Assembly: GCA_018971765.1 (NCBI GenBank)
Contig: JAGXAA010000001.1
Location: 1-33,723, forward strand
Source: Patescibacteria group bacterium
GTDB taxonomy: Bacteria; Patescibacteriota; Minisyncoccia; Phycocordibacterales; GWA1-40-21
Length of the DNA: 33,723 nt
Direction: 5' to 3'
The position numbers and the translations under genes were made by a program. Within the stretch, counting starts at the first letter, position 1. Each line of letters starts with the position of its first letter. Shown here piece by piece: positions 13,718-32,921 of this stretch. The notes beneath the pieces were generated by a model. That model saw nothing but the letters and a program-made list of their open reading frames with translations. It was not told the origin of the DNA and did no database searches.

Positions 13718-14062
13718 ATGATTATTAGAATTGTTGAAGACGCCATAAGCATAGATGAACTGCGAGAGATAGCTAAGGAGTATTACGTCGATATGATTAA
13801 AGGCGTGGTGGATATCTCTAAGGAAATAATCGCCGTTGGCGGAGAATATCATATGGATGCGAATGCTAAGATATCGGAAAATGGATCTGTCCAAGCGGAC
13901 GTATGGGGGTTTAATATTTTTTTCGACCGGCCCAAAGACGAACGAATTGAATTTACTTCGCTTATCAATATTCGCCCGCAAGCGGGCAACAGATCGATGG
14001 AAGTGGAAGATGGAACGATTCGCGAGAAAATGCGAGCGGTTATCAATAGTAAGATTATTTAA
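13718..14062 (+). CDS. Small conserved protein, DUF5674-like
   Basis: The ATG at 13718 gives MIIRIVEDAISIDELREIAKEYYVDMIKGVVDISKEIIAVGGEYHMDA...WGFNIFF...SLINIRPQAGNRSMEVED. I recall this pattern from the DUF5674 family, from memory only. The upstream TTG start in the track lies inside repeat A. Confidence 0.6.
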   Translation: MIIRIVEDAISIDELREIAKEYYVDMIKGVVDISKEIIAVGGEYHMDANAKISENGSVQADVWGFNIFFDRPKDERIEFTSLINIRPQAGNRSMEVEDGTIREKMRAVINSKII

Positions 14063-14064
14063 AT

Positions 14065-14376
14065 ATGGAACGGACTCCGCTATTTTATCTGGCAAATCTC
14101 GGCAGTGAAGTGCATAGGATTTTTACCTTGAAGGAAAAAGGGTTGTTTAAAGAAGCGGAAGGGGCTTATGCTCGAGCTTCTGATATTATCGAGAAGCTTT
14201 TAAACCATCCCGACCTTCAAGGGAGAACAGGGGAAATAAAAATATTAAGAGATTATCTTGAGCAATCCATGAAGAGCAAGAACGCGCAATTTTTGAAAAA
14301 AGAATGGCAAGGATATTTTTCTCCATACGCGAATAGGCTATTTTATAGCTTGGAAACAAAACATCCTGATTTATAA
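14065..14376 (+). CDS. Hypothetical protein
   Basis: 103-aa ORF that starts 3 nt after the preceding stop, so it is probably co-transcribed. I recognise no family. Confidence 0.45.
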   Translation: MERTPLFYLANLGSEVHRIFTLKEKGLFKEAEGAYARASDIIEKLLNHPDLQGRTGEIKILRDYLEQSMKSKNAQFLKKEWQGYFSPYANRLFYSLETKHPDL

Positions 14377-14381
14377 AAATT

Positions 14382-14639
14382 TCACTGGCCTTTTTGCCCC
14401 GCGCCGATTATTTTTACGAAACTTGAATACGCTTCGGCAATGTTTTCTTTTATTGAAGAAATCGGAGCGGCAATGTCCGCGAATGAATCTTTTTTCGGTT
14501 CATTGGAGGCGGGGGTGAGCCAAAAAGTGGAAATCCAAACAAAAAAGATGACGCCTGTGATTGAAGCGGAAACAGTCAAAGCAATCATTTTTTTCTTGGC
14601 GGGAGATTTTTTTCTTAATTCGTCTATGAAATCAAACAT
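14382..14639 (-). CDS. Hypothetical small membrane protein
   Basis: The ATG at 14639 gives MFDFIDELRKKSPAKKKMIALTVSASITGVIFFVWISTFW..., with one TM segment. The track start is GTG at 14654. Confidence 0.4.
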   Translation of the reverse strand: MFDFIDELRKKSPAKKKMIALTVSASITGVIFFVWISTFWLTPASNEPKKDSFADIAAPISSIKENIAEAYSSFVKIIGAGQKGQ

Positions 14640-14771
14640 ATTAATTCGAAGCACGAAATCCGAAAGAAAATTGAAGTACTAATGACAAAAATTCAAAACT
14701 TGTTTTGGACATTAGGATTTAGAATTTTGTATTTGTTTCGAATTTCTTGCTTTCTTTATTATAATAAATTA

Positions 14772-15656
14772 TCAATTGCCATCTATAATTTCTAACAAAG
14801 TTTCCTCATCAATATCTTTATCAAATTCAAAAATAATTTCCCCATTTTTTTCTTTTTTATAAAAAATATGAATAGCCAGATCGCCCGATTCCCTATTTTT
14901 TATTTCCACGTCAAACCCTTCAGCGTAATCAAATCCTTGATTATTGAGTGCCTGAACAAATTTATCTCTTTCCTCAATTCCTTTGATCTTCTCAATTACT
15001 TTTGCTAAAAAGCTTTCAAGCACTCCTTGATGAGAAGCAAAAAATCTTTTCATCGTGTCTTCATATTTTTTGTCATCATCTTGGACAAGCTCGTTAAAAC
15101 GCGGAGCTATGTCATAGTATTTTTGAATAATGTAGGCTATGGCTTGAGCTTGTTTGGTGTAAGTTGAACTCTTATTATCATTTTCTTCTTTAGCTAATTC
15201 ATCACTCTTTTCAACTAGAAATTTAAGATATTCGCTTTTCTTAGCAGCCTCTACTGCCTTTTTGAAATAATTGGAAGCAGAATCAGCCTCAAAATTAAGT
15301 CTGTCGTCCACTCTGATTTTTGAACCTGATTCTAAAGGCAAATCTTTATCCAGTTTTTCCTTTAATTCTTCCAGTGTTTCCGTTCCGGTAATCTCCTCCA
15401 GCTTGCCAGACATAACCAAGCCGCCCGTCTCTTGAGTTCTCTTCTTCGGCGAACCGAAAACCATTGATTGGCTAATATCATCCTGCTCGGCTTTTTCTTT
15501 AGCATGAATTTTCCCTTCAGGAGTTAACCTCACTTCCTCATCACTCTTTGTCTTATCATTCTCTTTTTCGTCGTGGCGCATAAAAATCAACTCTATTTTA
15601 GAAGTATAATCTTTCAATCTTTCTTTATTTTCAAAATTTTTTTGTTTTTCAAACAT
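14772..15656 (-). CDS. Histidine phosphatase superfamily (phosphoglycerate-mutase-like) protein
   Basis: The N-terminal IFMRHDEKEN...RLTPEGKIHAKE matches the RHxE...LTxxG signature of branch-1 histidine phosphatases. It is the last gene of a tightly packed five-gene minus-strand operon. Confidence 0.55.
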   Translation of the reverse strand: MFEKQKNFENKERLKDYTSKIELIFMRHDEKENDKTKSDEEVRLTPEGKIHAKEKAEQDDISQSMVFGSPKKRTQETGGLVMSGKLEEITGTETLEELKEKLDKDLPLESGSKIRVDDRLNFEADSASNYFKKAVEAAKKSEYLKFLVEKSDELAKEENDNKSSTYTKQAQAIAYIIQKYYDIAPRFNELVQDDDKKYEDTMKRFFASHQGVLESFLAKVIEKIKGIEERDKFVQALNNQGFDYAEGFDVEIKNRESGDLAIHIFYKKEKNGEIIFEFDKDIDEETLLEIIDGN

Positions 15657-15661
15657 ATTTT

Positions 15662-17104
15662 TTATTTCGCTTTTTTAATAATTCTCACCACCCCGTTGTC
15701 CGCGTCCACTTCCACCAAATCGCCGTCTTTTAGAATTCTGGTTGCATTTTTTGTGCCAACAATGCATGGTTTATTTAATTCCCTTGATATGATGGCGGCG
15801 TGGCAAGTTATACCGCCTTCGTCGGTTACTATAGCCGATGACTTTTTCATTAAGGGCACAAATTCCGCCCTTGTCATTGAAGTAACTAAAATATTTCCGG
15901 GTATAAACCTTGAAAATTCTGACCTGTCAAGAATGATGCTGACTTTCGCTATCACCCTGCCTTTACAGCCAGTGTTTCCCCTAATCTCAAACATTTCATT
16001 ATCTTCTCTTTCATCCATAAATTTGTAAGCCTTATCTTTAATTTCTTTGACTCTGCCGTATTCAAATTCATAGCCATTTTTATTTACATATACAGCAATA
16101 CCTTTTTTTCTAAGTTTTATTTGATCGCAATAATCATTTTTTTTATAGGTTCCATCAGTAAAATCAGCGTAATACCCCCAAACTATGTCGTCTTGCGGAA
16201 TATTTTTTCTCTTAAAAATTTCTCTGACAATGTTGGATATTAAGGCTATAATTTTTTGTATCGGTTCTTTTCTTATGTCTCTAACATATAGACAAAGCTG
16301 GATGTATTCTAATAATTTATTCAAATCTTTAGATAATTTGTTCTTAAAGTCATATATCTTTTTTTTATTAGACAAAATATCATTGGAAATTTTATCAAGT
16401 TCAGCGCTAATTTTTTCAAACCCACCCTTATCCTTGATTATCTTATCAAAATAAATCGCAGATTCTTCAATCGGCGGGCAAATATAATAATCACTAAGCA
16501 TCCATTGTCCTGCATAATGGTCCGAATCTTCTTTTAACGAAAGTATCGCTCGATCAAACTTTGTTGCAAATGACTCAAAGGTGCTTCTTGCGCTAAGGTC
16601 AAAAAAAACTTTGAAGTTTTTGTCTTCACCGCCAATCTCTTTATAAAATTTATAAATTAAGTTCTCGTCTAATGCCTCGCAAAAAACAGTTGATGCCAAT
16701 ATACTTGGCACTAAATTAAAACAGAGCTTTGCAACAGCGTCTAATTCTTTTTCTTTTATTGATTTCAGTTTTTCTGGGGTATATTTTTTATAATATTCAT
16801 TGCCTTTTTCCCAGATTGACAAAAAATCTTTATATTCAAGCAGATGGTCTATATTTTTTAATTTTTGAAATTTGCGAAAAGTTGAAATGGTGGTGCTTAC
16901 ATATTTTTCTAAATCGAAGAAAATTACTCCATACTTATTTTCCGCCAAAAAGATAAATGACCCAAAACCAAAGTCATAATACCTATCAATGTAAGGAACA
17001 AAAATCATGGGGATTATGCTTCCATATATTAATAAAGAAAAACTTCCTTCTTGTTTCGTTATTTTCTTTCCTTCAAAATCTTTTTTGAATTTTTCAAAAA
17101 TCAT
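15662..17104 (-). CDS. PEP-utilising-enzyme mobile (swivelling phosphohistidine) domain protein with a large N-terminal domain of unknown specificity
   Basis: C-terminus: GRVIAKVSIILDRSEFSRFIPGNILVTSMTRAEFVPLMKKSSAIVTDEGGITCHAAIISRELNKPCIVG, the swivel domain with its catalytic His. The start overlaps the upstream stop (TAATG). Confidence 0.75.
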   Translation of the reverse strand: MIFEKFKKDFEGKKITKQEGSFSLLIYGSIIPMIFVPYIDRYYDFGFGSFIFLAENKYGVIFFDLEKYVSTTISTFRKFQKLKNIDHLLEYKDFLSIWEKGNEYYKKYTPEKLKSIKEKELDAVAKLCFNLVPSILASTVFCEALDENLIYKFYKEIGGEDKNFKVFFDLSARSTFESFATKFDRAILSLKEDSDHYAGQWMLSDYYICPPIEESAIYFDKIIKDKGGFEKISAELDKISNDILSNKKKIYDFKNKLSKDLNKLLEYIQLCLYVRDIRKEPIQKIIALISNIVREIFKRKNIPQDDIVWGYYADFTDGTYKKNDYCDQIKLRKKGIAVYVNKNGYEFEYGRVKEIKDKAYKFMDEREDNEMFEIRGNTGCKGRVIAKVSIILDRSEFSRFIPGNILVTSMTRAEFVPLMKKSSAIVTDEGGITCHAAIISRELNKPCIVGTKNATRILKDGDLVEVDADNGVVRIIKKAK

Positions 17105-17985
17105 TACAATTTCGTTTTTTGTTTTTTAAATTTACGGCCATTAATCCATGCCACAAGCCATTTAATGTGTGTTTCAAAATCTGTTTCGCTCCTTGAATTA
17201 TCTTCGTAAGGATGCGGAAGGTTAGCTCTTGATCCGGTCAGTAATTTTCCTCCTCCAACCAAAACAAGAGTTCTAAAAATTTGATTACCAACCATGCCAT
17301 TAGGAGGCACGATTATATTACAGTCATCTTTTAGGGCTGTTTCAATCTCTATGGCATAATTTTTTGCTTCTATATTTTTTTTAGTAAAATACTCAACGAC
17401 TGAATTTGCATCATCATAAGTTTGATTTAGGGTCTTCTGCACGCCATCTTTAAGTCCTTTTTTTCTTTCGTAAGTCTCGTGTCTTATACCAGTTATCAGG
17501 CCTATTTTAGGCTTTATTCCCAACTCTGCTTCCATAAATCCAATGACTCCCTCGCAATCTTTAATTTTTTCTTCTACTGTCCAGCCATGTGGGTTGCTTC
17601 CATTTGAAATAAAAAATTGTCTTCCGTAAAAATCCTCCATTAGCGCCAGCTCTATAATTTCTTTTGCTTTTTCTTGACCAACTAAAGCCGAATACGCTTC
17701 AAAGGTTTTAAAATCGTCAATAGTCCCCCTGACTATACCTTCTACTTCCCCGTTAAAAAGCGTCTTTGCCAATTCTTTTTCCGGTTCTTCGGAAATTATT
17801 TTTTGAAAACCCTCAACATTCTCAATAGCGTTTGGCCCGACTAATACAATCTCGGCATATTTTTTGGATTTAACCAAGCTTTTCAAGATTTCCTTATTGG
17901 GTTCTTTTAAACCGAAGCCAATTTTAGGCTTGCCTAATTTTATTCTTTCTCTGATTATTTTTTCAAATTGAGTTATCTTTTTCAT
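17104..17985 (-). CDS. Pta/PlsX-fold (phosphate acyltransferase-like) protein, weak assignment
   Basis: 293 aa. The pattern IGFGL...VLVGP...GEVEGIVRGT...VPPNGMVGNQIFRTL loosely resembles phosphate acetyl/butyryl-transferase and PlsX families. Confidence 0.4.
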   Translation of the reverse strand: MKKITQFEKIIRERIKLGKPKIGFGLKEPNKEILKSLVKSKKYAEIVLVGPNAIENVEGFQKIISEEPEKELAKTLFNGEVEGIVRGTIDDFKTFEAYSALVGQEKAKEIIELALMEDFYGRQFFISNGSNPHGWTVEEKIKDCEGVIGFMEAELGIKPKIGLITGIRHETYERKKGLKDGVQKTLNQTYDDANSVVEYFTKKNIEAKNYAIEIETALKDDCNIIVPPNGMVGNQIFRTLVLVGGGKLLTGSRANLPHPYEDNSRSETDFETHIKWLVAWINGRKFKKQKTKL

Positions 17986-18006
17986 AAAATAATTTTACTT
18001 ATCATA

Positions 18007-19329
18007 TCACAAACATACAACTTTGCCATCTTTTATAATTTCTATTTCTTCTTCATTCTCTTTAATACCTTTAATTGTTGGTGACATGGCCACGCAATCA
18101 ATGTGAATCGGGATATCGTTATAATCGGGATCATTCTTTTCAATATTAAAAAGGCTATTTTTGCCTAAAGCAATATGAATTGTCCCAAGTCCTTTTTCCG
18201 CCTCAAGCGAAGTGTCCGGAGAAATTTTTTCTCTATCTTTATTGTATCTGAACGCTTTGGAATTCATGCCAAAAGAAAATTCCGCTAATCTGAAAGAATT
18301 TGTAATTTTATCATTGGGATTTTTTTCTTGATATTCTTTGTTGGTTTTTTCTAAAATTTCTTTCAGTTTTTTAGCTGACTCGCCACCTTCTATTTTTAGA
18401 ACTTTTCCGTTTTCAATAGTAAACTTTATTGGCTCATCAGGCCTGCCGATCATACCGATCGCGCCATCAGCAACATATACGCCGTTAGTTTCCATCAAAT
18501 CTACCGATCCTCCGTATTCGCCGGACGGGAAATTACTTCCCGTGCCAGCCCTGTCAACAATACCCGTTTCTTTTGCCAAACTCCGTACTTTAATATCAAG
18601 CATCAAATCCGTTCCATTTTTGCTGATTATCTTTACTTTCTCAACTCCTTTCATAACTTCCGCAAATTTATCTATCCTTTCCTTCATTTCTATTGGGTTC
18701 TCAAGTGCCCCGCCTTCAGTTAAAATTTCTCTCGCGGTATTAGTAATTGAGATTATTCTTGATTTAGAAGGAAACATGCTTGCCTCATCAATTTTTCGTT
18801 CACTCAACATTTTCGCCAATGTTTCAGGCGGATATTTGTTTCTTAATTCCGGAAAGGCGTTTTTTAAAGCAGGAGATTCCAGTAATGAACTTATAATTTC
18901 CGAGCTGTGTTTAGGATGAACTAATTCAACTGTCTCTTTGGAGTGCGACCTTGATAGCGATGTAACCAACAAAACAGCGTCCGCCGTTTTCATTTTTTCG
19001 CCGATGTTTTCGCCAAACTCTTGAGCGGCGTGTTCTGTTTTTGGCGCGACAACAATCCTGCAATCATCGCCAGCAATTTCTTGTCCCGCATCCAGCAATG
19101 CCTTGATCATTAATTTATCGGCTCCGCTGTCCGTAATAATCAACAAGTTTTCACCCTTAGAGTTATCCGGCGATCTTTTTAGAGAAAAAGACTTAATAAC
19201 ATTTTCCGCTCCAACTTTCATTTTTTCAAACTCCTCTTTTTCTTCAATAGATAATTCCTGTTCTTTCTTGTCCATTGAACGCATAGCAAGTTCGTAATCT
19301 AAGTATGGTTTTTCAAAATTATTTTGCAT
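18007..19329 (-). CDS. M29-family (aminopeptidase T/PepS-like) metallopeptidase
   Basis: FPSGEYGGSVDLMETNGVYVADGAIG..., EFSFGMNSKA and GTIHIALGKN resemble thermophilic metalloprotease M29. I prefer the ATG at 19329 because the track start overlaps the upstream gene. Confidence 0.7.
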   Translation of the reverse strand: MQNNFEKPYLDYELAMRSMDKKEQELSIEEKEEFEKMKVGAENVIKSFSLKRSPDNSKGENLLIITDSGADKLMIKALLDAGQEIAGDDCRIVVAPKTEHAAQEFGENIGEKMKTADAVLLVTSLSRSHSKETVELVHPKHSSEIISSLLESPALKNAFPELRNKYPPETLAKMLSERKIDEASMFPSKSRIISITNTAREILTEGGALENPIEMKERIDKFAEVMKGVEKVKIISKNGTDLMLDIKVRSLAKETGIVDRAGTGSNFPSGEYGGSVDLMETNGVYVADGAIGMIGRPDEPIKFTIENGKVLKIEGGESAKKLKEILEKTNKEYQEKNPNDKITNSFRLAEFSFGMNSKAFRYNKDREKISPDTSLEAEKGLGTIHIALGKNSLFNIEKNDPDYNDIPIHIDCVAMSPTIKGIKENEEEIEIIKDGKVVCL

Positions 19330-23615: not shown

Positions 23616-23806
23616 ATTTAAAGAATATCAAATAATGTTCTTATTACAAAATCTAATTTAAATAATTGAGAAGAATTTGAATGTTTTACTTCCAAGTAAT
23701 GCGAGGCTTCGATTTTATTGCATAATATCTGTCATCTGCTAGCATTAAAGGTAGAAAGTGGTTTTTTAAATTAAAAATATTTACTATTCAGAAAGGATGG
23801 TAAAAA

Positions 23807-24028
23807 ATGAGAAGTCATTACATAGTTCTTTTTGGGAATAATTCTGAAGAAAGCTTGACGGCTAGGAACAAATTAATGAGTAAAAAAATTAACTTTGCAG
23901 AAATGGAAGCTGATCCGAAAGAATTTAGTAAGAGCGATTTGCCTATCTTGATAACTGGTGAAGGTCAGTTCTCAGGTCTTAATTCAATAGAAAAATATAT
24001 AGAAGATATTCTGAACGAAACTGACTGA
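23807..24028 (+). CDS. Hypothetical small protein (glutaredoxin-like length and pattern but no Cys)
   Basis: 73-aa ORF with AAAGGATGG upstream and a hairpin plus T-run downstream. There is no CxxC motif. Confidence 0.35.
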   Translation: MRSHYIVLFGNNSEESLTARNKLMSKKINFAEMEADPKEFSKSDLPILITGEGQFSGLNSIEKYIEDILNETD

Positions 24029-24073
24029 TTTAAAGTCAGGTAGATTTTAAAACATTTCTATAAAAACAAGAAA

Positions 24074-24106
24074 AAGGAGTAGATTTATTTACTCCTTTTG
24101 TTTTTT
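24074..24106 (+). terminator. Rho-independent terminator
   Basis: AGGAGTA-GATTTATT-TACTCCT followed by TTTGTTTTTT. Confidence 0.6.
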
Positions 24107-24172
24107 GAGATCCAATAATTAATGTTAAAAAATTTGCAAACCTAACCCGTTTATAGTATTACTTACTGAACT

Positions 24173-26755: not shown

Positions 26756-27085
26756 TCAATAATTTCTAGTTTTCCTCTCCTTGAAAAAATCCTCAAGACG
26801 ATATGCCGCGCCCTTGAGACCGACATGCCAGTTTGTCACCGACTCGACCGGCTGATTTTCCTTGTAGTCGTAGATGGTGATGACCGCTCTGCCCCTTCGG
26901 GCAGTTGTTTTGAATGCCCACTCTGCACGGACCTTGCCGTCGCCGGACCGCCATATACCCTCTCTGGTCCGATCGTGTGGTCGGCCGAAGCACTTTACGA
27001 GGTCGTCGTATGATCCTTGAAGATATCCTGCAAAGCCCGAGCCGATGACATCCTTTGGACCTGCTTTTATAAATCGATTTTTCAT
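26756..27085 (-). CDS. Hypothetical protein inside the GC-rich insert, downstream of the RT
   Basis: The ATG at 27085 gives MKNRFIKAGPKDVIGSGFAGYLQGSYDDLVKCFGRPHDRTREGIWRSGDGKVRAEWAFKT...ITIYDYKENQPVESVTNWHVGLKG (109 aa). Its GC-rich codon usage matches the RT and target genes. I recognise no family. The longer track ORF would run through a structured intergenic region. Confidence 0.45.
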   Translation of the reverse strand: MKNRFIKAGPKDVIGSGFAGYLQGSYDDLVKCFGRPHDRTREGIWRSGDGKVRAEWAFKTTARRGRAVITIYDYKENQPVESVTNWHVGLKGAAYRLEDFFKERKTRNY

Positions 27086-27246
27086 GCACGGACGAACATA
27101 CCCCTGCTTTCTTAGGAAGTCTAGCGTCCGAATCTCTGAATTTTCGGCACACGCCCTTGAAGTGGCCCGAAGCCGTGGAAATGGCTTACACCAAGCGGAA
27201 AAGCGCACACGCGGGCGAACAGGGGCCGAATTCAGGGGTATGTTCC

Positions 27247-28077
27247 CTATAAGCCAGCAACCTTTTTCTTTAAATCATTGCCGTCGCCATGACTTAGCAA
27301 TCCGAGGTAAGACTGAACGACCTCTGGTTTCTTCTCCGAATCCCTGATTTTCTTAAACATTCTTTTCTTAGTTGTTGTACGCAGAACCCGATGATGTGGA
27401 AAATGCACCCAGCCGAGAAAGTCGATACCTGACGCTGCGGTCTTCAGAAATATTTTATCCGGATGGAGCGACAGCTTCAGTCTCTCCTCGAGAAAGTCAT
27501 GGACTTTCGGTAGCACTTCCATGAGCACGCCTTTGTCATGGTGCATGATCACAAAGTCGTCGGCGTAGCGGATGTAGTACCTCTGCCTGAGTCCGTGTTT
27601 TACAAACTGGTCGAATTCATTCATGTATATGTTCACGAGAAGCTGCGAGGTTAGGTTGCCGAGCGGCAATCCTTTGCCTGGACCTGTACTCTGAAAGCTG
27701 CTGACGGTCCGTTCAATGAGCCAGATAGTGTCAGGGTCGCTTATGTGCCGCTTCACGATCTGAACCATGGTTGCCTGATCGATTGAGGCAAAGAATTTTC
27801 TGACATCGCACTTCAGGACCCAGCATGTCCTGCTGTTGCTCTCTGAAACCTGCCGTACGAATTGGTTGAAGCGCTTAAGCGCACGGTGTGTTCCCTTGAG
27901 ATGACGGCAGGAGTAGGAATCGTAGATAAATTTCTTATCAAAAAGCGGATACAGGACGCGGTAGATTGCATGATGCAGAAGCCTGTCGCGGACCGTAGCC
28001 TTATGGATACTCCTTGGCTTAGGATCGCTTATCGAAAATGCCTCATACTCGCCGTGTCGATATGTCTTGGTCCGCAA
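27247..28077 (-). CDS. DGR-type reverse transcriptase (frame continues upstream to the ATG at 28215 but is interrupted by TAA at 28197-28195)
   Basis: SISDPKPRSIHKATVRDRLLHHAIY (motifs 1-2), KCDVRKFFASID (motif 3), LPLGNLTSQLLVNIYMNEFD (the DGR-typical GxxxSQ motif 4), YIRYADDFVIM (YxDD), GIDFLGW. The track start at 28077 is TTG. The same frame upstream reads MTTRIS*SIKNLCDAWNEFIRGKKSKKDVAEFSLNLSQNIFRLHEDL. Confidence 0.9.
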   Translation of the reverse strand: MRTKTYRHGEYEAFSISDPKPRSIHKATVRDRLLHHAIYRVLYPLFDKKFIYDSYSCRHLKGTHRALKRFNQFVRQVSESNSRTCWVLKCDVRKFFASIDQATMVQIVKRHISDPDTIWLIERTVSSFQSTGPGKGLPLGNLTSQLLVNIYMNEFDQFVKHGLRQRYYIRYADDFVIMHHDKGVLMEVLPKVHDFLEERLKLSLHPDKIFLKTAASGIDFLGWVHFPHHRVLRTTTKKRMFKKIRDSEKKPEVVQSYLGLLSHGDGNDLKKKVAGL

Positions 28078-28213
28078 ATCCTCATGAAGCCTGAAAATAT
28101 TTTGCGAGAGATTGAGGGAAAATTCAGCGACATCCTTTTTCGACTTCTTACCGCGAATAAATTCATTCCATGCGTCGCATAGATTTTTGATGGATTATGA
28201 TATTCTTGTAGTC

Positions 28214-28609
28214 ATGATTCATTCCCGTAAAGAAGGCGTTTTACCCCCCCCCCGAGAATTACCACAAGTAATTCTCAAGTCGAAAGAGACATACCATTTC
28301 TGGCTGACGCTATATCGTGATTTTCCAAAGGTTGAGCGGTTTGGCATAGGAAATAAAGTAGAGCAGGCTTTTCTTGATGTTCTTGAATACACCTTTTGTC
28401 TGACCTATCTCCCACCGGAGCATAAGGTTCCCATGCTCAACAAAGCGATCACGAAACTCGACATCGTGAAGTTTTTCGCCCAGCTCGCATGGGAGAGCAA
28501 GCTCATTCCAACCGATAAATATTCAGACCTTATCGCGGGCCTTGAAGAAGTCGGCCGACAGCTCGGCGGATGGAAGAAAGGCCTACAAAAGAAAACTTCT
28601 GCTAATTGA
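28214..28609 (+). CDS. avd: Avd-like accessory variability determinant (four-helix-bundle protein)
   Basis: 131 aa from the ATG at 28214. FPKVERFGIGNKVEQAFLDVLEYTF...LDIVKFFAQLAWESKLI...GLEEVGRQLGGWKKGL resembles Avd and 23S-IVS four-helix-bundle proteins; compare the BPP-1 Avd ...AEVGRILGSWI, recalled from memory. It sits next to TR and RT but on the opposite strand. Confidence 0.75.
   Translation: MIHSRKEGVLPPPRELPQVILKSKETYHFWLTLYRDFPKVERFGIGNKVEQAFLDVLEYTFCLTYLPPEHKVPMLNKAITKLDIVKFFAQLAWESKLIPTDKYSDLIAGLEEVGRQLGGWKKGLQKKTSAN
28244..28253. repeat. C10/G10 homopolymer tract
   Basis: ttaCCCCCCCCCCgag. It encodes the PPP of avd codons ~11-14 and lies 29-38 nt upstream of the RT-frame ATG on the other strand. 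Confidence 0.9.
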
Positions 28610-28616
28610 GCAGAAG
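28596..28616. promoter_or_regulatory. 7-bp hairpin straddling the avd stop codon, 12 nt from the TR 3' end
   Basis: CTTCTGC-TAATTGA-GCAGAAG. On the minus strand it lies immediately 3' of TR. Confidence 0.5.
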
Positions 28617-28627
28617 AAAGATAACAG

Positions 28628-28749
28628 TTTCGAGAGAACACCTGGTTGCCATCGTTCCACCTGTTCGGGTTCTCGACGGAGTTCGCATTGACGTTCCAGC
28701 CGTCGTCGTTCCAGTTCACGTTGACCGTTCGGAGCACACCAGCGTTATC
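28628..28749 (-). repeat. DGR template repeat (TR)
   Basis: It aligns without gaps to 29094..29215 (offset 466). On the minus strand it reads ...DNAGVLRTVNVNWNDDGWNVNANSVENPNRWNDGNQVFSRN, rich in AAC/AAT codons. Confidence 0.9.
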
Positions 28750-28984
28750 GTACATGGGACCATCTGCATCACCGCCCACCAAATCATGACAAGCTGAATT
28801 TTATTCGGGACATCGAAGTCCGCCAGTCTCATGTACCAATTCTTATTCTTTTTTTGAAGAGACTTCTCTCACTCTCGCGCAAGGCGTACCCAGCGCGACT
28901 CTCGGGAAAAATATCCTAAGACCATGACGCGGAAGCCGTGACCGCCGCGTAACACATGATTTCGGAAGCAGTATACCAGTTTGA

Positions 28985-29026
28985 ATATAAAAAATTAACC
29001 CCCGGTCTGCCGAAGCAAACCGAGGG
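28985..29026 (-). terminator. Rho-independent terminator after the DGR target gene
   Basis: Minus strand: CCCUCGGUUUGC-UUCG-GCAGACCGGGGG. This is a 12-bp stem whose two non-Watson-Crick pairs are G-U only on the minus strand, with a UUCG tetraloop. It is followed by TTAATTTTTTATAT. Confidence 0.6.
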
Positions 29027-29050
29027 TCAAAGTGTCCAAGGGACAGAGGA

Positions 29051-29761
29051 TCAGGCCGCCGGAGCCGAAGGTTCCGAGGATTCGAGAACAGAATTGCGAG
29101 AGAACACCTGGCTGCCATCGCCCCACCTGCTCGGGTCCTCGACGGAGCGCGCACGGACGAACCAGCCGCCGCCGCACCAGAGCACGCGGACCGCGCGGAG
29201 CACACCAGCGACATCCTTGATGTAGAAGAGATTGGCCCAGCCGTTGTTCAGGAGAACACCTTCTTCGCCATGCTTCTGCTTTTCCATGAGGGAAAACATC
29301 TCGGAGAGAGTGGTTTCAGCTTTCGCTTCGCCACCGAGCTCCTCAATGATCGTACTATCCACTGATGCCTTGCGCAATTTTGCATAGTGCAGGGTTTGTT
29401 CACTGATAGGGTCTTCGATTTTGCCGTCACCGTTTAGGAACCACGCCTTGAAGTTGCCGCCGAGGTAGCTGATCTTCACCGGAGCGTTACGCTTGGTGTT
29501 GATCACAAACCTCTCTTTGGCGACGAGCTTGCCGGTCGTTGCGGGAATGACGATCGTCGAGACGAGCTCGAGGAGATCGGTCCGGGGCTTCGGAGCGGGC
29601 GCTTGCGCGACCTCACCGTTACTCCAGCAGGACTCTTTGCGGAGAAACCGCTTGAGTTCTTCTTCCCATTGGCTGCCGTCCTGGCCGCCGAGGTTCACAA
29701 TGAGCTGATTGAGCGGTCCGGTTGTGAATTCGCGGAGCGCCTTGCTGAGCATAGTATCCAT
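29051..29761 (-). CDS. DGR target (variable) protein; VR forms the C-terminal ~40 codons
   Basis: 236 aa with AAAGGAG 7 nt upstream of the ATG. C-terminus: ...DVAGVLRAVRVLWCGGGWFVRARSVEDPSRWGDGSQVFSRN. It matches the TR translation except at TR Asn/Asp/Thr codons. Confidence 0.85.
   Translation of the reverse strand: MDTMLSKALREFTTGPLNQLIVNLGGQDGSQWEEELKRFLRKESCWSNGEVAQAPAPKPRTDLLELVSTIVIPATTGKLVAKERFVINTKRNAPVKISYLGGNFKAWFLNGDGKIEDPISEQTLHYAKLRKASVDSTIIEELGGEAKAETTLSEMFSLMEKQKHGEEGVLLNNGWANLFYIKDVAGVLRAVRVLWCGGGWFVRARSVEDPSRWGDGSQVFSRNSVLESSEPSAPAA
29094..29215 (-). repeat. DGR variable repeat (VR)
   Basis: 122 nt homologous to TR. By hand alignment there are 24 mismatches, and every one falls at a plus-strand T (coding-strand A) of TR. 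Confidence 0.9.
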
Positions 29762-29815
29762 GGTCAGTCTCCTTTCTGTGGATTGTTATTTGCTGTCGAT
29801 TTGGCCACATTGGTT

Positions 29816-29866
29816 TCATCACAGCAGAGAATGGCTTAGTGTGTAAGCCGCTTTCTGCTGTGATGA
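29816..29866. promoter_or_regulatory. Large perfect palindrome in the 5' leader of the target gene
   Basis: TCATCACAGCAGA...TCTGCTGTGATGA (13-bp perfect arms) with an inner GGCTTA/TAAGCC stem. It lies between the predicted promoter and the RBS. Confidence 0.6.
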
Positions 29867-29900
29867 ATCTCGCAATTTCAAAGACCTTATTTTTAATGCT

Positions 29901-30977: not shown

Positions 30978-32921
30978 CTATGGCTGATGCTCAATGTCCA
31001 TTTTCTTTTTCGGAATGATGCCGTGGGCGATGATTATTTTCTCAAATTCGTCTTTCTCAATCGTCTCCGCTTCAATCAGTCTTTTGGCGATGGCATCCAA
31101 AGCGTCGCGATTTTTTATAATTATGTCTTCGGATTTTTTGAAGGCCTCGTTCATTATTTTGGAAACTTCGTCGTCAATCATGGCGCCGACTTTTTCCGAA
31201 TATTCTTTGTCTTCCAAACCTCTGCCGTAGACGGCTCTGCCTCCCGCCCCCTCAAACGCCATCGGCCCCATTCTCTCCGACATTCCGTATTTCGTCACCA
31301 TATCGCGCGCGAGAGCGGTAGCGACCTGCAAGTCATTGGACGAACCTGTGGTGAGGTCGCCAAACATCATTTTTTCCGTCACATAACCGCCGAGAGAAAC
31401 GGCAATATCGTCAAGAAATTCTCTCTGCGATTGGAGTCTCTTGTCTTCAATCGGCAATTTCAAAGTGTAGCCGGCGGCGCGGCCTCGGGAAATTATGGAA
31501 ACTTTGTGAACCGGATCGGAGTAAGGAAGCGCGGAAGCGATGATGGCATGCCCTCCTTCGTGATAAGCGGTTATTTCTTTTTCTTTTTTTGAAAGAATGT
31601 GGCTTTTTCTTTCCGGACCGAGCATCACTTTTTCAATGGAACGAATAAGGTCATACTGCGAGATTTTTTTCCTGTTTTCGCGCGCCGCGAGAATCGCTCC
31701 TTCATTCATCAAAGAATACAGATCGGCTCCGGAAAAGCCCGGCGTTCTCTCGGCGATAACTGAGAAATTCACATCTTCCGCAAATTGTTTGGCGCGGGCG
31801 TGGATTTTCAATATTTCTTCTCTGTCATTTCTGTCGGGCAAATCTATCGTCACTCTGCGGTCAAATCTTCCCGGGCGAAGAAGCGCCGAGTCCAAAACAT
31901 CCGGCCTGTTGGTCGCCGCCATCACGATTACTTTCTCGTTCGGTTCAAAGCCGTCCATCTCCACCAAAATTTGGTTTAAGGTCTGTTCTCTCTCATCGTT
32001 TCCTCCTCCAAGCCCGGCTCCTCGCACTCTGCCCACCGCGTCTATCTCATCAACAAAAACGATTGACGGCGCGGCTTGCTTCGCCATTTTGAACAAATCT
32101 CTGACGCGCGAAGCGCCGACCCCGACAAACATTTCCACGAATTCCGAACCGGAAATTGAAAAGAAGGCGACTCCAGCTTCACCCGCCACAGCTCGCGCCA
32201 ACAATGTCTTGCCTGTGCCCGGCGCGCCCATCAAAAGTATCCCTTTCGGTATGCGCGCGCCGATTTCCAAAAACTTTTTCGGATTTTTCAGGAAATCAAC
32301 TATCTCCGAAAGCTCCTCCTTTGCCTCTTTGGCGCCCGCGACATCGGCAAAAGTCACTTTTTGTTTTTTATCCGACGGCAAAATCATTCTCGCCTTTGAC
32401 TGCCCAAAAGTGAAAGCTTGCATCCCCGCGCCTTTGACCTGCCTCGACAAAAACCAGATAAAGATGAATATGAAAAGAATCGGCGCGAGAAAAGGAGCGA
32501 GGTTGATAATCCAATACCCTATCCCGCTTGGATTTTTTATTTCAATTTTCACCGCCGCGATTTTTTCCGCCTTAACTCCGTAATTGGAAAGCGTGTCGGA
32601 AAGCGCCGTTCCATCTTCTTTCTTCGCGATTTTTTTCTCCTCCGAGCCGACATATTTTATCTCTAAATTATCGCCTTTCACGGTGATACTTTCCACACTG
32701 CCGGCGGAAATGTCAGAAGCGACTTGCGAGATCGGAATTTCTTTGACCGATGAAGTGTTGTCGGCGATTATTGAATACAAAGTGATAATAACTAAGAAAA
32801 TCAATATCGCGCTAATAGCATTCACGAAAAACGGCTTCTTGAGGGAATGTTTCTTCACCCCGCGCCCTCTCTTATCTTGCCCCGCTTTCTTCCCATTTTT
32901 ATTATTATTAAATAAGTCCAT
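30978..32921 (-). CDS. ftsH: ATP-dependent zinc metalloprotease FtsH
   Basis: Two TM segments, Walker A ([11 protein letters not shown]), an SRH region, and the zinc motif HEGGHA. Confidence 0.95.

What the first reader, a model, noticed from the sequence alone, without database searches (positions are those of the whole stretch)
28628..29215. TR/VR alignment: 24 of 24 substitutions are at TR adenines, hitting 11 AAY codons, 2 GAC and 1 ACG
The hand alignment uses a constant offset of 466 nt with no gaps. Mismatches fall at TR plus-strand positions 28630, 28646, 28655-56, 28664, 28671, 28682-83, 28688-89, 28694-95, 28703, 28706, 28709-10, 28715-16, 28721-22, 28728-29 and 28745-46. Every one is a T on the plus strand, so an A on the coding strand. 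At protein level TR reads DNAGVLRTVNVNWNDDGWNVNANSVENPNRWNDGNQVFSRN and VR reads DVAGVLRAVRVLWCGGGWFVRARSVEDPSRWGDGSQVFSRN. Eleven Asn codons, one Thr and two Asp are diversified, and two further substitutions are synonymous CGA-to-CGC changes. My own count gives 15^11 x 4 x 4 x 4, a theoretical repertoire of order 10^14 proteins. The A-poor stretch CCAGGTGTTCTCTCG at the 3' end is identical in both copies and is a candidate IMH-like boundary. Homology breaks immediately after it.
Basis: seen in the sequence. Interest (0 to 1): 0.8.

Follow-up and report, generated by a model that had tools for sequence, protein, structure and literature searches.

The report
Diversity-generating retroelement in a Patescibacterium
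The two 122-base near-repeats are the template and variable regions of a complete diversity-generating retroelement, a reverse-transcriptase system that rewrites chosen codons of one gene; it is a real but already well-known kind of element in these tiny uncultured bacteria.

Summary
At offset 466 with no gaps, all 24 mismatches in 28628-28749 fall on coding-strand adenines of the copy next to the reverse transcriptase, and 88 of 88 non-A positions are identical (P about 6e-19).

All the parts of a DGR are present:
- a bRT-like reverse transcriptase (27247-28077, minus strand);
- an Avd gene on the opposite strand (28190-28609, plus strand);
- the template repeat (TR);
- the variable repeat (VR), at the 3' end of a 236-aa gene with no Pfam domain.

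Fifty independent relatives show the same pattern: 881 of 930 mismatches lie at TR adenines. The cassette order target-TR-(avd)-RT is the published architecture B3. Patescibacterial DGRs with domain-less targets are also published. This is therefore a new member of a known kind.

- The mismatch at 28630 is a fixed TR/VR boundary difference, not mutagenesis.
- The theoretical repertoire is about 4e17 proteins.

One addition goes beyond the finding. The TR sits in a roughly 370-nt RNA whose 210-nt 5' domain is strongly supported by covariation. Its 5' half is a sub-threshold match to Rfam RT-9. This domain appears to carry the primer strand and stop duplex that lie 3' of the TR in phage BPP-1. 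That reading is inferred, not shown.

The parts
29051..29761 (-). Target (variable protein) gene, 236 aa. The model shows an N-terminal three-helix module (residues 3-40), a linker, and an alpha/beta domain (64-222) whose last strands carry the VR.
   Evidence: ORF. 704 close homologues, all 'hypothetical', with no Pfam domain. 3299 clusters at 50% identity. AlphaFold2 model with pLDDT 92.
29097..29215 (-). Variable repeat (VR), the copied and mutagenised block, codons 183-222 of the target.
29090..29096 (-). VR-specific flank CAATTCT (IMH-like). It is the exact reverse complement of the RNA 7-mer at 28837-28843.
   Evidence: Read directly from the sequence. Fixed-register comparison with compensatory changes among subfamilies.
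28995..29030 (-). 16-bp hairpin with a UUCG loop followed by a T-run, 21 nt after the target stop codon and 64 nt after the VR. It is the intrinsic terminator of the target gene and may also act as the DGR stem-loop.
   Evidence: The hairpin is conserved among related loci although the stem sequences vary.
28970..28978 (-). Extended -10 promoter TGGTATACT of the TR RNA. The predicted start is near 28962.
   Evidence: TGnTAnAnT is conserved in every row of alignment A3 that reaches this column. This is a prediction only.
28866..28960 (-). 5' RNA domain, helices H1-H4. It is a distant relative of Rfam RT-9 (RF03080).
   Evidence: Covariation. RT-9 hits of 29.8-32.7 bits against a gathering score of 46.1, at the same relative position in the window and 4 other loci.
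28837..28843 (-). Invariant 7-mer AGAAUUG directly 5' of helix H5. This is the candidate primer strand (inferred).
28748..28838 (-). Helix H5 (28838-28825 with 28761-48) enclosing hairpins H6 (28821-28808) and H7 (28794-28774). The 3' arm of H5 ends where the TR begins. H5 is the candidate stop duplex (inferred).
   Evidence: RNAalifold and pair counts. Covariance model R1 scores 113 bits here and finds the domain in front of the TR in every cassette-bearing locus.
28631..28749 (-). Template repeat (TR), with 31 adenines and 11 AAY codons.
   Evidence: The TR is invariant between close relatives while the VR differs.
28617..28630 (-). TR 3' flank AAACUGUUAUCUUU (IMH*-like). The motif CGAAACU is nearly invariant in the clade.
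28587..28616 (-). 8-bp stem-loop followed by a U-run, 12 nt after the TR. Its loop holds the avd stop codon on the other strand. It is a terminator and sits at the position of the Avd-binding stem-loop of BPP-1.
   Evidence: Present in 37 of 38 relatives with 36 different hairpin sequences.
28190..28609 (+). avd accessory gene, 139 aa, on the strand opposite to the TR, RT and target.
   Evidence: Pfam bAvd 41.8 bits against a cut-off of 40. NCBIfam DivGenRetAVD E 7e-16, 58 bits against a cut-off of 80, covering the full-length profile. The inverted orientation is conserved in all cassettes.
27247..28077 (-). DGR reverse transcriptase, 276 aa, with YADD, LGNLTSQ and the KPR arginine that aligns with bRT R74.
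   Evidence: RVT_1 4.7e-24. The best solved relative is 8ub7, which aligns at the residue numbers published for bRT, at E 1.2e-37; group II and retron RTs reach only 1e-19.

Best explanation
What it is. This is a chromosomal diversity-generating retroelement (DGR) of the Patescibacteria-specific clade, with gene order target(VR)-TR-(avd, inverted)-RT. The TR is transcribed, and the RT-Avd complex copies it into cDNA while misincorporating opposite adenines. The cDNA then replaces the VR at the 3' end of the 236-aa target gene. This recodes 11 Asn codons and 8 single-A codons without ever creating a stop codon, for about 4e17 possible proteins.

Shown here:
- the adenine-specific TR/VR relation;
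- all four components;
- the same relation in 50 related loci;
- hypervariability confined to TR-adenine positions across the protein family;
- recent VR turnover between near-identical relatives.

Inferred here. The TR is part of a stand-alone RNA of about 370 nt (roughly 28962 to 28590, minus strand). It has its own extended -10 promoter and ends at a stem-loop with a U-run. Its 210-nt 5' domain is structured. The 7-mer AGAAUUG (28843-28837) acts as the primer strand. Helix H5, contiguous with the 7-mer, pairs with the bases just upstream of the TR and stops the RT. The RNA-linked cDNA then pairs with the VR sense strand across the boundary, because the 7-mer is perfectly complementary to the VR flank CAATTCT but matches only 4 of 7 bases of the TR flank. 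That difference would give TR-to-VR directionality. This is the BPP-1 logic with the primer, stop and RT-binding module placed 5' instead of 3' of the TR.
For: TR/VR relation. 24 of 24 mismatches lie at TR adenines, 88 of 88 non-A positions are identical, and P is 6e-19.

Components. The RT is closest to the BPP-1-type RT 8ub7 (1.2e-37), far ahead of group II and retron RTs, and carries LGNLTSQ and YADD. Avd is identified.

Related loci. Among 50 distinct TR/VR pairs, 881 of 930 mismatches fall at A, although A makes up only 25% of the TR. The cassette order is conserved in more than 25 loci. Entropy is 3.0 bits at AAY-encoded positions against 0.5 bits elsewhere. L005 and L067 differ at 15 VR positions, all at TR adenines, at 0 TR positions, and at 11 positions in the other 644 nt.

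RNA domain. 96.3% of cells are paired, 32 of 50 pairs show compensatory changes, 0 of 500 shuffles reach the observed values, and slid controls reach at most 51% paired. Invariant G-U pairs fix the strand. Covariance model R1 finds the H5-H7 junction directly upstream of the TR in all cassettes, including those with a different target type, and in no orphan target locus apart from one 36-bit degenerate hit in L004. There is no conserved structure 3' of the stem-loop.

7-mer and VR flank. Complementarity is 7/7 in three sequence-distinct classes and 6+1 in two more, each class matching its own flank best. The TR flank matches only 4-6 of 7. Random P(7/7) is 6e-5.

BPP-1 comparison. Sp47-56 pairs 9 Watson-Crick plus 1 wobble with the VR IMH, against 6+1 with the TR IMH*. 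This was noted and interpreted in the same way by Naorem et al. 2017, PMC5703328. The adjacency of the primer strand and stop strand follows Handa et al. 2024.
Against: Activity in this genome is not shown. The window and two MAGs about 99.75% identical to it over 9.7 kb have identical VRs despite 22 SNPs elsewhere.

Avd scores are borderline or below the curated cut-offs.

The target's fold is not identified. Foldseek gives nothing below E 0.2, and the best hits are C-type lectins at TM about 0.37.

For the RNA model:
- the promoter and RNA ends are predictions;
- the 7-mer pairs only 4 of 7 with the TR flank in the main family, which is weak for a template:primer duplex;
- the VR-flank complementarity fails in two subfamilies (L041/L045 and L032/L043/L046);
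- no priming nucleotide has been mapped;
- the VR flank is coding sequence, so part of its conservation comes from the protein.
Confidence: 0.93

Rival explanations
1. The element is a DGR, but in this genome it is silent or a fossil. The VR was written in the past and is now evolving as an ordinary gene segment.
For: The VR is identical in the window, L001 and L002 although they differ at 22 positions elsewhere. In L001 avd is frameshifted into a 58-aa fragment. L003 keeps the target, leader and TR but has lost most of avd and the RT. About half of the target homologues have no cassette within 6 kb.
Against: In the window the RT (with YADD), Avd, the TR, the RNA domain, the 7-mer and the VR flank are all intact. 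There are no non-A mismatches in 119 nt, so no decay has accumulated since the last homing event. Close relatives show recent VR turnover.
Confidence: 0.25
2. The DGR RNA is conventional. The functional spacer lies 3' of the TR, read through the stem-loop into the avd antisense region towards the RT. The 5' structured domain does something else, such as stability, regulation, or acting as a 3'-UTR element of the target mRNA. On this view the 7-mer/VR-flank complementarity is an intramolecular helix of a read-through target-TR transcript.
For: In BPP-1 all essential RNA elements except 20 nt lie 3' of the TR. Handa et al. report Avd-binding stem-loops and up/downstream stop duplexes in CPR DGRs too. 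The 7-mer pairs poorly (4/7) with the TR flank in the main family. The VR flank and the 7-mer are on the same strand, 250 nt apart. Several relatives can form a short outer helix around the 3' stem-loop, which implies some read-through.
Against: RNAalifold finds no conserved structure in the 200 nt beyond the stem-loop. A U-run follows the stem-loop in nearly all loci. A conserved terminator and a conserved extended -10 box separate the target gene from the leader. The 3' arm of H5 abuts the first TR base whatever the TR sequence. The order of elements (primer strand, stop strand, short stem-loop, A-rich stretch, single strand, longer stem-loop) is the same as BPP-1 Sp47-139.
Confidence: 0.3
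3. The repeat is an ordinary duplicated gene fragment or gene-conversion donor, and the RT belongs to a group II intron or retron.
For: NCBIfam's best RT hit is the group II intron model, at 137 bits against a cut-off of 300.
Against: The adenine-only mismatch pattern has P 6e-19. The RT is only 276 aa with no maturase or endonuclease domain. Rfam finds no intron or retron RNA. An Avd gene is present. The RT's best solved relative is the DGR RT. The pattern recurs in 50 loci.
Confidence: 0.01

Closest known systems
Bordetella phage BPP-1 DGR (mtd-avd-TR-brt)
   Same: - Adenine-specific TR-to-VR transfer.
- A bRT-like RT in which R74 and the xGxLTSQ motif are conserved.
- An Avd accessory protein.
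- A VR at the 3' end of the target gene.
- A hairpin downstream of the VR.
- An RNA primer strand that is more complementary to the VR flank than to the TR flank.
- A stop duplex next to the TR 5' end, and a stem-loop just 3' of the TR.
   Different: - The element is chromosomal, not carried by a phage.
[quoted passage not shown]
- There is no detectable structured spacer 3' of the TR. Instead there is a 210-nt structured domain 5' of the TR with its own promoter.
- The target shows no sequence or significant structural similarity to Mtd.
- The hairpin after the VR is 64 nt away and looks like a terminator.
Patescibacteria (CPR) DGRs: the 'CPR set' and architecture B3 TR-(avd)-RT of Wu et al. 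2018 (PMC5758913), and DGR clade 2 of Roux et al. 2021 (PMC8144416)
   Same: - Host lineage: the relatives are Paceibacteria, Taylorbacteria, Sungbacteria and Kaiserbacteria MAGs.
- Gene order with reversed avd.
- Targets without recognisable domains or transmembrane segments.
- Modular targets that share an N-terminal module.
   Different: Nothing differs at the level of kind. I could not check whether this exact target family is one of their UVR1-6 or protein clusters. The 5' RNA domain and its link to RT-9 are not mentioned in the papers I could read.
Rfam RF03080 RT-9 RNA (Weinberg et al. 2017, PMC5737381)
   Same: A full-length match (model positions 1-92) to the H1-H4 part of the leader, at the same relative position in the window and in L072, L082, L102 and L137. 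The family was found near RT genes, and its authors speculated a DGR role for some RT motifs.
   Different: All scores (29.8-32.7 bits) are below the gathering score of 46.1, so this is a relative and not a member. RT-9 covers only the 5' half of the domain.
C-type lectin-fold DGR variable proteins (Mtd, TvpA and others)
   Same: The VR forms the C-terminal strands of an alpha/beta domain. The secondary-structure order beta-alpha-alpha-beta-beta-beta-beta of residues 122-221 fits a C-type lectin domain. The best Foldseek hits are C-type lectins.
   Different: There is no significant hit (E at least 0.34, TM about 0.37). There is no FGE-sulfatase or DUF1566 Pfam signal in 88 members. No solved relative is found by sequence profile.

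Membership tests
Diversity-generating retroelement (DGR) | A TR/VR near-repeat whose differences are confined to TR adenines | tested here: met
   24 of 24 mismatches, 88 of 88 non-A positions identical, P 6e-19. 881 of 930 mismatches in 50 related pairs.
Diversity-generating retroelement (DGR) | A reverse transcriptase of the DGR clade next to the TR | tested here: met
   The best solved relative is bRT-type 8ub7 at 1.2e-37, against 1e-19 for group II and retron RTs. Has LGNLTSQ, YADD and the R74 equivalent. 276 aa with no extra domains.
Diversity-generating retroelement (DGR) | A VR inside the 3' end of a protein-coding target, with A placed at codon positions 1-2 (AAY) and no stop codon reachable | tested here: met
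   11 AAY codons. None of the A substitutions can give a stop codon. The VR is residues 183-222 of 236.
Diversity-generating retroelement (DGR) | An accessory variability determinant (Avd) | tested here: met
   Pfam bAvd 41.8 bits against a cut-off of 40. NCBIfam DivGenRetAVD 7e-16 but 58 bits against a cut-off of 80. No solved relative by sequence.
Diversity-generating retroelement (DGR) | IMH in the VR distinct from IMH* in the TR, with the RNA primer strand pairing better with IMH | tested here: inconclusive
   The flank is CAATTCT in the VR and AAACTGT in the TR. The candidate primer 7-mer pairs 7/7 against 4/7, with compensatory changes among subfamilies, but the relation fails in two subfamilies and the priming site is unmapped.
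Diversity-generating retroelement (DGR) | A GC-rich inverted repeat downstream of the VR | tested here: inconclusive
   A 16-bp hairpin lies 64 nt after the VR and is followed by a T-run. It may simply be the terminator.
Diversity-generating retroelement (DGR) | Ongoing mutagenic retrohoming (VR heterogeneity within a population) | not testable with these tools
   No reads are available. Three near-identical assemblies share one VR. Close relatives L005 and L067 differ only at A sites.
DGR cassette architecture B3, TR-(avd)-RT (Wu et al. 2018) | [quoted passage not shown] | tested here: met
C-type lectin-fold variable protein | A CLec fold for the VR-bearing domain | tested here: inconclusive
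   The pLDDT-92 model has only weak CLec neighbours (E 0.34, TM 0.37) and no Pfam CLec-type signal.
Rfam RT-9 (RF03080) | A score at or above the gathering threshold of 46.1 bits | tested here: not met
   29.8-32.7 bits in 5 loci, full-length and at a conserved position. This makes it a distant relative, not a member.

The most novel reading that the evidence does not exclude
In this Patescibacteria DGR clade the template RNA is a circular permutation of the BPP-1 DGR RNA. The primer strand, stop-duplex strand and RT-binding elements (the equivalent of Sp47-139) lie 5' of the TR, inside a covariation-supported 210-nt domain with its own promoter. Only the Avd-binding stem-loop stays 3' of the TR, where it doubles as the terminator.

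[quoted passage not shown] It would give Rfam's orphan RT-9 motif a function. It would also offer an independent, covariation-based test of the idea that IMH is read by base pairing with the cDNA-linked RNA primer.
Probability: 0.5. Interest if true: 0.6.

Novelty: new member of a known kind. Interest (0 to 1): 0.4.

Why it matters
As a DGR the finding is ordinary. Patescibacteria are known to be rich in DGRs, and both this gene order and this sort of domain-less target are in published surveys.

Its value is as a clean, complete example of a very large family: at least 3299 protein clusters at 50% identity. The family's variable protein has a confident predicted structure but no recognisable relative and no known ligand.

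The RNA analysis, if confirmed, bears on two open points of DGR mechanism. The first is how the RT-Avd complex is positioned on templates that lack a 3' spacer. The second is how the VR, and not the TR, is chosen as recipient. The natural compensatory changes between the 7-mer and the VR flank support the RNA-primer/IMH pairing idea that was proposed for BPP-1 from a single sequence.

Tried and rejected
- First AlphaFold2 run on a shallow alignment (A1): pLDDT 47, unusable.
- Second homologous-protein search with profile A2: it returned almost the same close set and added nothing.
- PDB sequence-profile search for the target: only chance hits.
- Foldseek against PDB and BFVD: nothing significant.
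- Pfam on 88 family members: no lectin-type domain.
- Rfam at gathering thresholds on the window and 13 loci: no family for the DGR RNA.
- Search for covarying helices between the 5' domain and the TR 3' end or downstream region: only the already known helices and a few low-variation candidates were found.
- RNAalifold on 250 nt downstream of the TR (avd antisense): no structure beyond the stem-loop.
- Viral-contig scan with the leader pattern: one chance hit with no DGR.
- Synteny test: the housekeeping flanks (topA, ftsH, smpB, methyltransferase) are not conserved next to the cassette in other species, so location says nothing about inheritance.
- The ORF downstream of the RT (26756-27208) is conserved only in the closest relatives and was rejected as a cassette component.
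- Paul et al. 2017 (PMC5436926) could not be read, nor could the supplement of Weinberg et al..
- Rejected idea: that CGAGAG in the 5' domain pairs with CUCUCG at the TR 3' end. Hand inspection of divergent loci showed no consistent pairing.
Full report
OBSERVATION

- In 28628-28749 there are 24 mismatches, all T on the + strand, so A on the coding strand. They are 13 A>G, 6 A>C and 5 A>T.
- No gaps are needed.
- The next mismatch (28750, G/C) is the 5' end of homology.
- All 88 non-A positions are identical, and no other copy exists in the window.
- 24 of the 34 A in the block are changed. The chance of 24 mismatches all landing on A is 6e-19.

WHAT SURROUNDS IT

On the minus strand the order is as follows.
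- A promoter-like site at 29930-29901.
- The target gene at 29761-29051, with the VR at its 3' end.
- A 16-bp hairpin with a T-run at 29030-28995.
- About 210 nt of non-coding DNA, followed by the TR.
- An 8-bp hairpin with a T-run at 28616-28596.
- A 276-aa reverse transcriptase at 28077-27247.

The RT matches RVT_1 at 4.7e-24. Its best solved relative is chain 8ub7_A (1.2e-37), which aligns at the residue numbers published for Bordetella phage bRT: R74 in KPR and I181 in PIGSLTSQ. Group II intron and retron RTs follow at 1e-19. The RT carries YADD and LGNLTSQ.

Avd passes Pfam bAvd narrowly (41.8 bits against 40). It matches the whole NCBIfam DivGenRetAVD profile at 7e-16 but scores below that family's cut-off.

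The rest of the window is housekeeping: gyrA, leuS, a class II aaRS, yceG, hsdM, topA, ftsH and smpB. The leader pattern has no true hit in IMG/VR. The element is therefore chromosomal.

RELATIVES

The target has 704 close homologues, and its profile hits 3299 clusters at 50% identity. Among the 120 closest homologues listed, every one that carries a name is called 'hypothetical'; the named organisms are Patescibacteria MAGs or unclassified 'bacterium', and none has a Pfam domain.

Across 36 homologues, the 11 positions encoded by TR AAY codons have 3.0 bits of entropy, with 9-12 different residues each. Single-A codons have 1.1-1.5 bits and at most 5 residues. Every other position, inside or outside the VR, averages 0.5 bits.

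A genome scan and a metagenome scan gave 50 distinct TR/VR pairs. The genome scan used the protein. The metagenome scan used the conserved leader motif GAATTGGTANNNGNNNNTNGNGGACTT. Of the 930 mismatches in these pairs, 881 are at TR adenines, although A is only 25% of the TR.

The order target-TR-(avd inverted)-RT holds in all cassettes.

L005 and L067 are 97% identical over 872 nt. They differ at 15 VR positions, all opposite TR adenines, at 0 TR positions, and at 11 positions in the remaining 644 nt. The family therefore diversifies on short time scales.

Against activity in this particular genome, the window and two assemblies about 99.75% identical to it share one VR while differing at 22 other sites.

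COMPARISON WITH THE LITERATURE

Wu et al. 2018 define architecture B3, 'TR-(avd)-RT', with avd on the reverse strand. They also define a 'CPR set' of 126 DGRs whose VRs mostly fall outside the CLec and Ig classes.

Roux et al. 2021 describe a DGR clade restricted to Patescibacteria. Its targets lack recognisable transmembrane or other domains, and the authors expect new C-lectin variants among them.

The inverted avd and the domain-less target are therefore known features. The element is a new member of a known kind.

THE TARGET PROTEIN

With a diverse 88-sequence alignment, AlphaFold2 gives pLDDT 92.1. The model has a three-helix N-terminal module (3-40), a low-confidence linker, and an alpha/beta domain (64-222) whose last three or four strands are the VR.

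Foldseek finds nothing with E below 0.2 in PDB or BFVD. The top PDB hits are C-type lectins (MCL, NKR-P1, SP-D, tetranectin) with TM about 0.37. A C-lectin-like fold is therefore plausible but not shown.

The N-terminal module is shared, at 91% identity, with a target in L032 whose C-terminal variable domain is unrelated. This fits the modular targets described by Roux et al.

(i) The mismatch at 28630 (TR A, VR C) is a fixed boundary difference. The VR reads ...CG-C-AATTC... in all 50 pairs, although any base would keep the Arg codon. The TR reads ...CG-A-AACT..., or C in a few pairs. So 23 mismatches, not 24, are mutagenesis products.

(ii) Counting every A-containing codon of the copied block, the repertoire is 4.25e17 proteins and 4.6e18 DNA variants. 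No stop codon is reachable.

THE TR IS EMBEDDED IN A STRUCTURED RNA

An alignment of 39 non-redundant loci from 150 nt upstream of the leader motif to beyond the TR (A3) shows the following.
- A conserved extended -10 box, TGnTATACT (28978-28970).
- Seven helices between 28960 and 28748.

On this alignment 96.3% of cells are paired, and 32 of 50 pairs have changes on both sides. None of 500 column shuffles reaches the observed values. Sliding the partners by 1-3 columns drops pairing to 39-51%. Invariant G-U pairs and loop insertions of variable length place the structure on the minus-strand RNA.

The 5' half (H1-H4) gives full-length but sub-threshold hits to Rfam RT-9 (29.8-32.7 bits, gathering score 46.1). 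The hits sit at the same relative position in the window and four other loci. RT-9 is one of 19 'RT' motifs found near RT genes with no function assigned.

A covariance model of the 3' half (H5-H7) scores 113 bits in the window. It finds the same domain directly upstream of the TR in all eight cassettes tested that did not go into the model (one with the same target type and an inexact leader motif, seven with other or more distant targets), at 37-89 bits. Among target loci that lack a cassette it gives only a 36-bit degenerate hit (L004) and one 18.7-bit hit at E 0.08. The domain therefore belongs to the TR-avd-RT module.

Downstream of the TR there is only a 12-nt linker and a 7-11 bp stem-loop followed by a U-run, present in 37 of 38 loci with 36 different hairpin sequences. 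Beyond that, in the avd antisense region, RNAalifold finds nothing.

HOW IT PROBABLY WORKS (INFERENCE)

In BPP-1 the arrangement is as follows.
- The spacer strand Sp47-56 pairs with TR117-129 and primes from A56.
- The adjacent Sp59-70 pairs with the bases just upstream of the TR to stop the RT.
- A short stem-loop, adenosines, a single-stranded 'thumb ring' and a long RT-binding stem follow.
- An Avd-binding stem-loop sits just 3' of the TR.

In the window the arrangement is as follows.
- The invariant 7-mer AGAAUUG (28843-28837) is contiguous with the 5' arm of H5.
- The partner arm of H5 ends at the base before the TR.
- Inside H5 come a short stem-loop (H6), an A-rich stretch, a longer variable stem-loop (H7) and a conserved single strand.

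The 7-mer is the exact reverse complement of the 7 nt that follow the homology in the VR (CAATTCT, 29096-29090), but it matches only 4 of 7 bases of the TR flank.

Among subfamilies this complementarity is kept through compensatory changes:
- GGAAUUG with CAATTCC;
- AUACUUG with CAAGTAT;
- UUAGUUG with CAACTGA.

Each class matches its own flank best. The relation fails in L041/L045 and in L032/L043/L046.

I checked the prototype. BPP-1 Sp47-56 pairs 9 Watson-Crick plus 1 wobble with the VR IMH, but only 6+1 with the TR IMH*. Naorem et al. 2017 had noted this and proposed that pairing of the cDNA-linked RNA primer with IMH sets directionality.

The simplest reading is that this clade uses the BPP-1 mechanism with a permuted RNA. 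The primer, stop and RT-binding module is 5' of the TR. The stem-loop 3' of the TR is the Avd-binding element and also the terminator. [quoted passage not shown] The fixed C at VR position 29096 would be kept because it pairs with G7 of the primer strand.

None of this has been tested experimentally. The main rival is a conventional 3' spacer with the 5' domain doing something else, and I cannot exclude it.

VERDICT

The element is a complete DGR of the known Patescibacteria type. It is ordinary as a kind, and interesting mainly for the conserved RNA architecture around the TR.

Noticed in passing
window 29790-29880 (- strand; inverted repeat arms 29815-29838 / 29844-29867): The 5' UTR of the target gene holds a long hairpin of about 14+6 bp. 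It recurs with compensatory changes upstream of target homologues in at least 9 other loci, including loci without a nearby RT/avd. A conserved RBS, AAAGAAAGGAAAyCTGACCATG, follows it. This may be a regulatory RNA element of the target gene.
   Followed up: partly
L003 7021-7240 (JAUXUT010000149.1): A decayed cassette. The target, VR (22 of 22 A mismatches), leader and TR are intact, but avd breaks off about 100 nt after the TR and there is no RT within 5 kb. L001 likewise has a frameshifted avd and a split topA.
   Followed up: partly
L004, L009, L010, L013-L015, L018-L024, L030, L033, L034: About half of the genomic loci that encode a target homologue have no TR, RNA domain, avd or RT within 6 kb. 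Their proteins still vary at the VR positions. They may be remote targets of a cassette elsewhere in the genome, or relics.
   Followed up: partly
L032 5947-6561, also L036, L043, L046: The N-terminal 46-residue helical module of the target (TGPLNQLIVNLGG...FLRKEPCW) is fused, at up to 91% identity, to an unrelated DGR-diversified C-terminal domain (VR ...WWDFDWLARCRFLGVRKK). This points to a shared adaptor module with exchangeable variable domains.
   Followed up: partly
L029 3507-6632: One cassette with two targets. One VR lies upstream of the TR (13 of 13 A mismatches) and a second lies downstream of the RT (16 of 16).
   Followed up: no
window 29031-29050 and equivalents in relatives: Between the target stop codon and the terminator hairpin there are short repeats of the type CCCTTGGAC / CTTTGAC, with a period of about 9-10 nt. 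They are conserved in divergent loci, and their function is unknown.
   Followed up: no
window 31590-31662 (ftsH) and 29353-29457 (target gene, outside the VR): The differences between the window and L002 are clustered: 14 in 73 nt of ftsH and 6 in 105 nt of the target gene. This looks like short recombination tracts between strains.
   Followed up: no
window 23633-24167: An indel relative to L001: 534 nt in the window against 205 nt in L001. It contains the 73-aa ORF 23807-24028 between the aaRS gene and topA.
   Followed up: no
window 5867-8752 (-): The leucyl-tRNA synthetase carries a NUDIX domain hit (residues 405-506, 2e-10) inserted after the editing domain.
   Followed up: no
window 14000-18500: A low-GC stretch (0.30-0.35, against 0.40-0.49 elsewhere). 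It spans ORFs without Pfam hits and a protein with a PEP-utilising domain.
   Followed up: no
alignment A2 (one member): One homologue of the target family carries a Ribosomal_L14 domain (1.6e-14). This echoes the ribosomal-protein-linked CPR DGR targets mentioned by Wu et al..
   Followed up: no
L026 289-416: A LOOT RNA (RF03000, 75 bits) lies 5.6 kb upstream of a related cassette.
   Followed up: no
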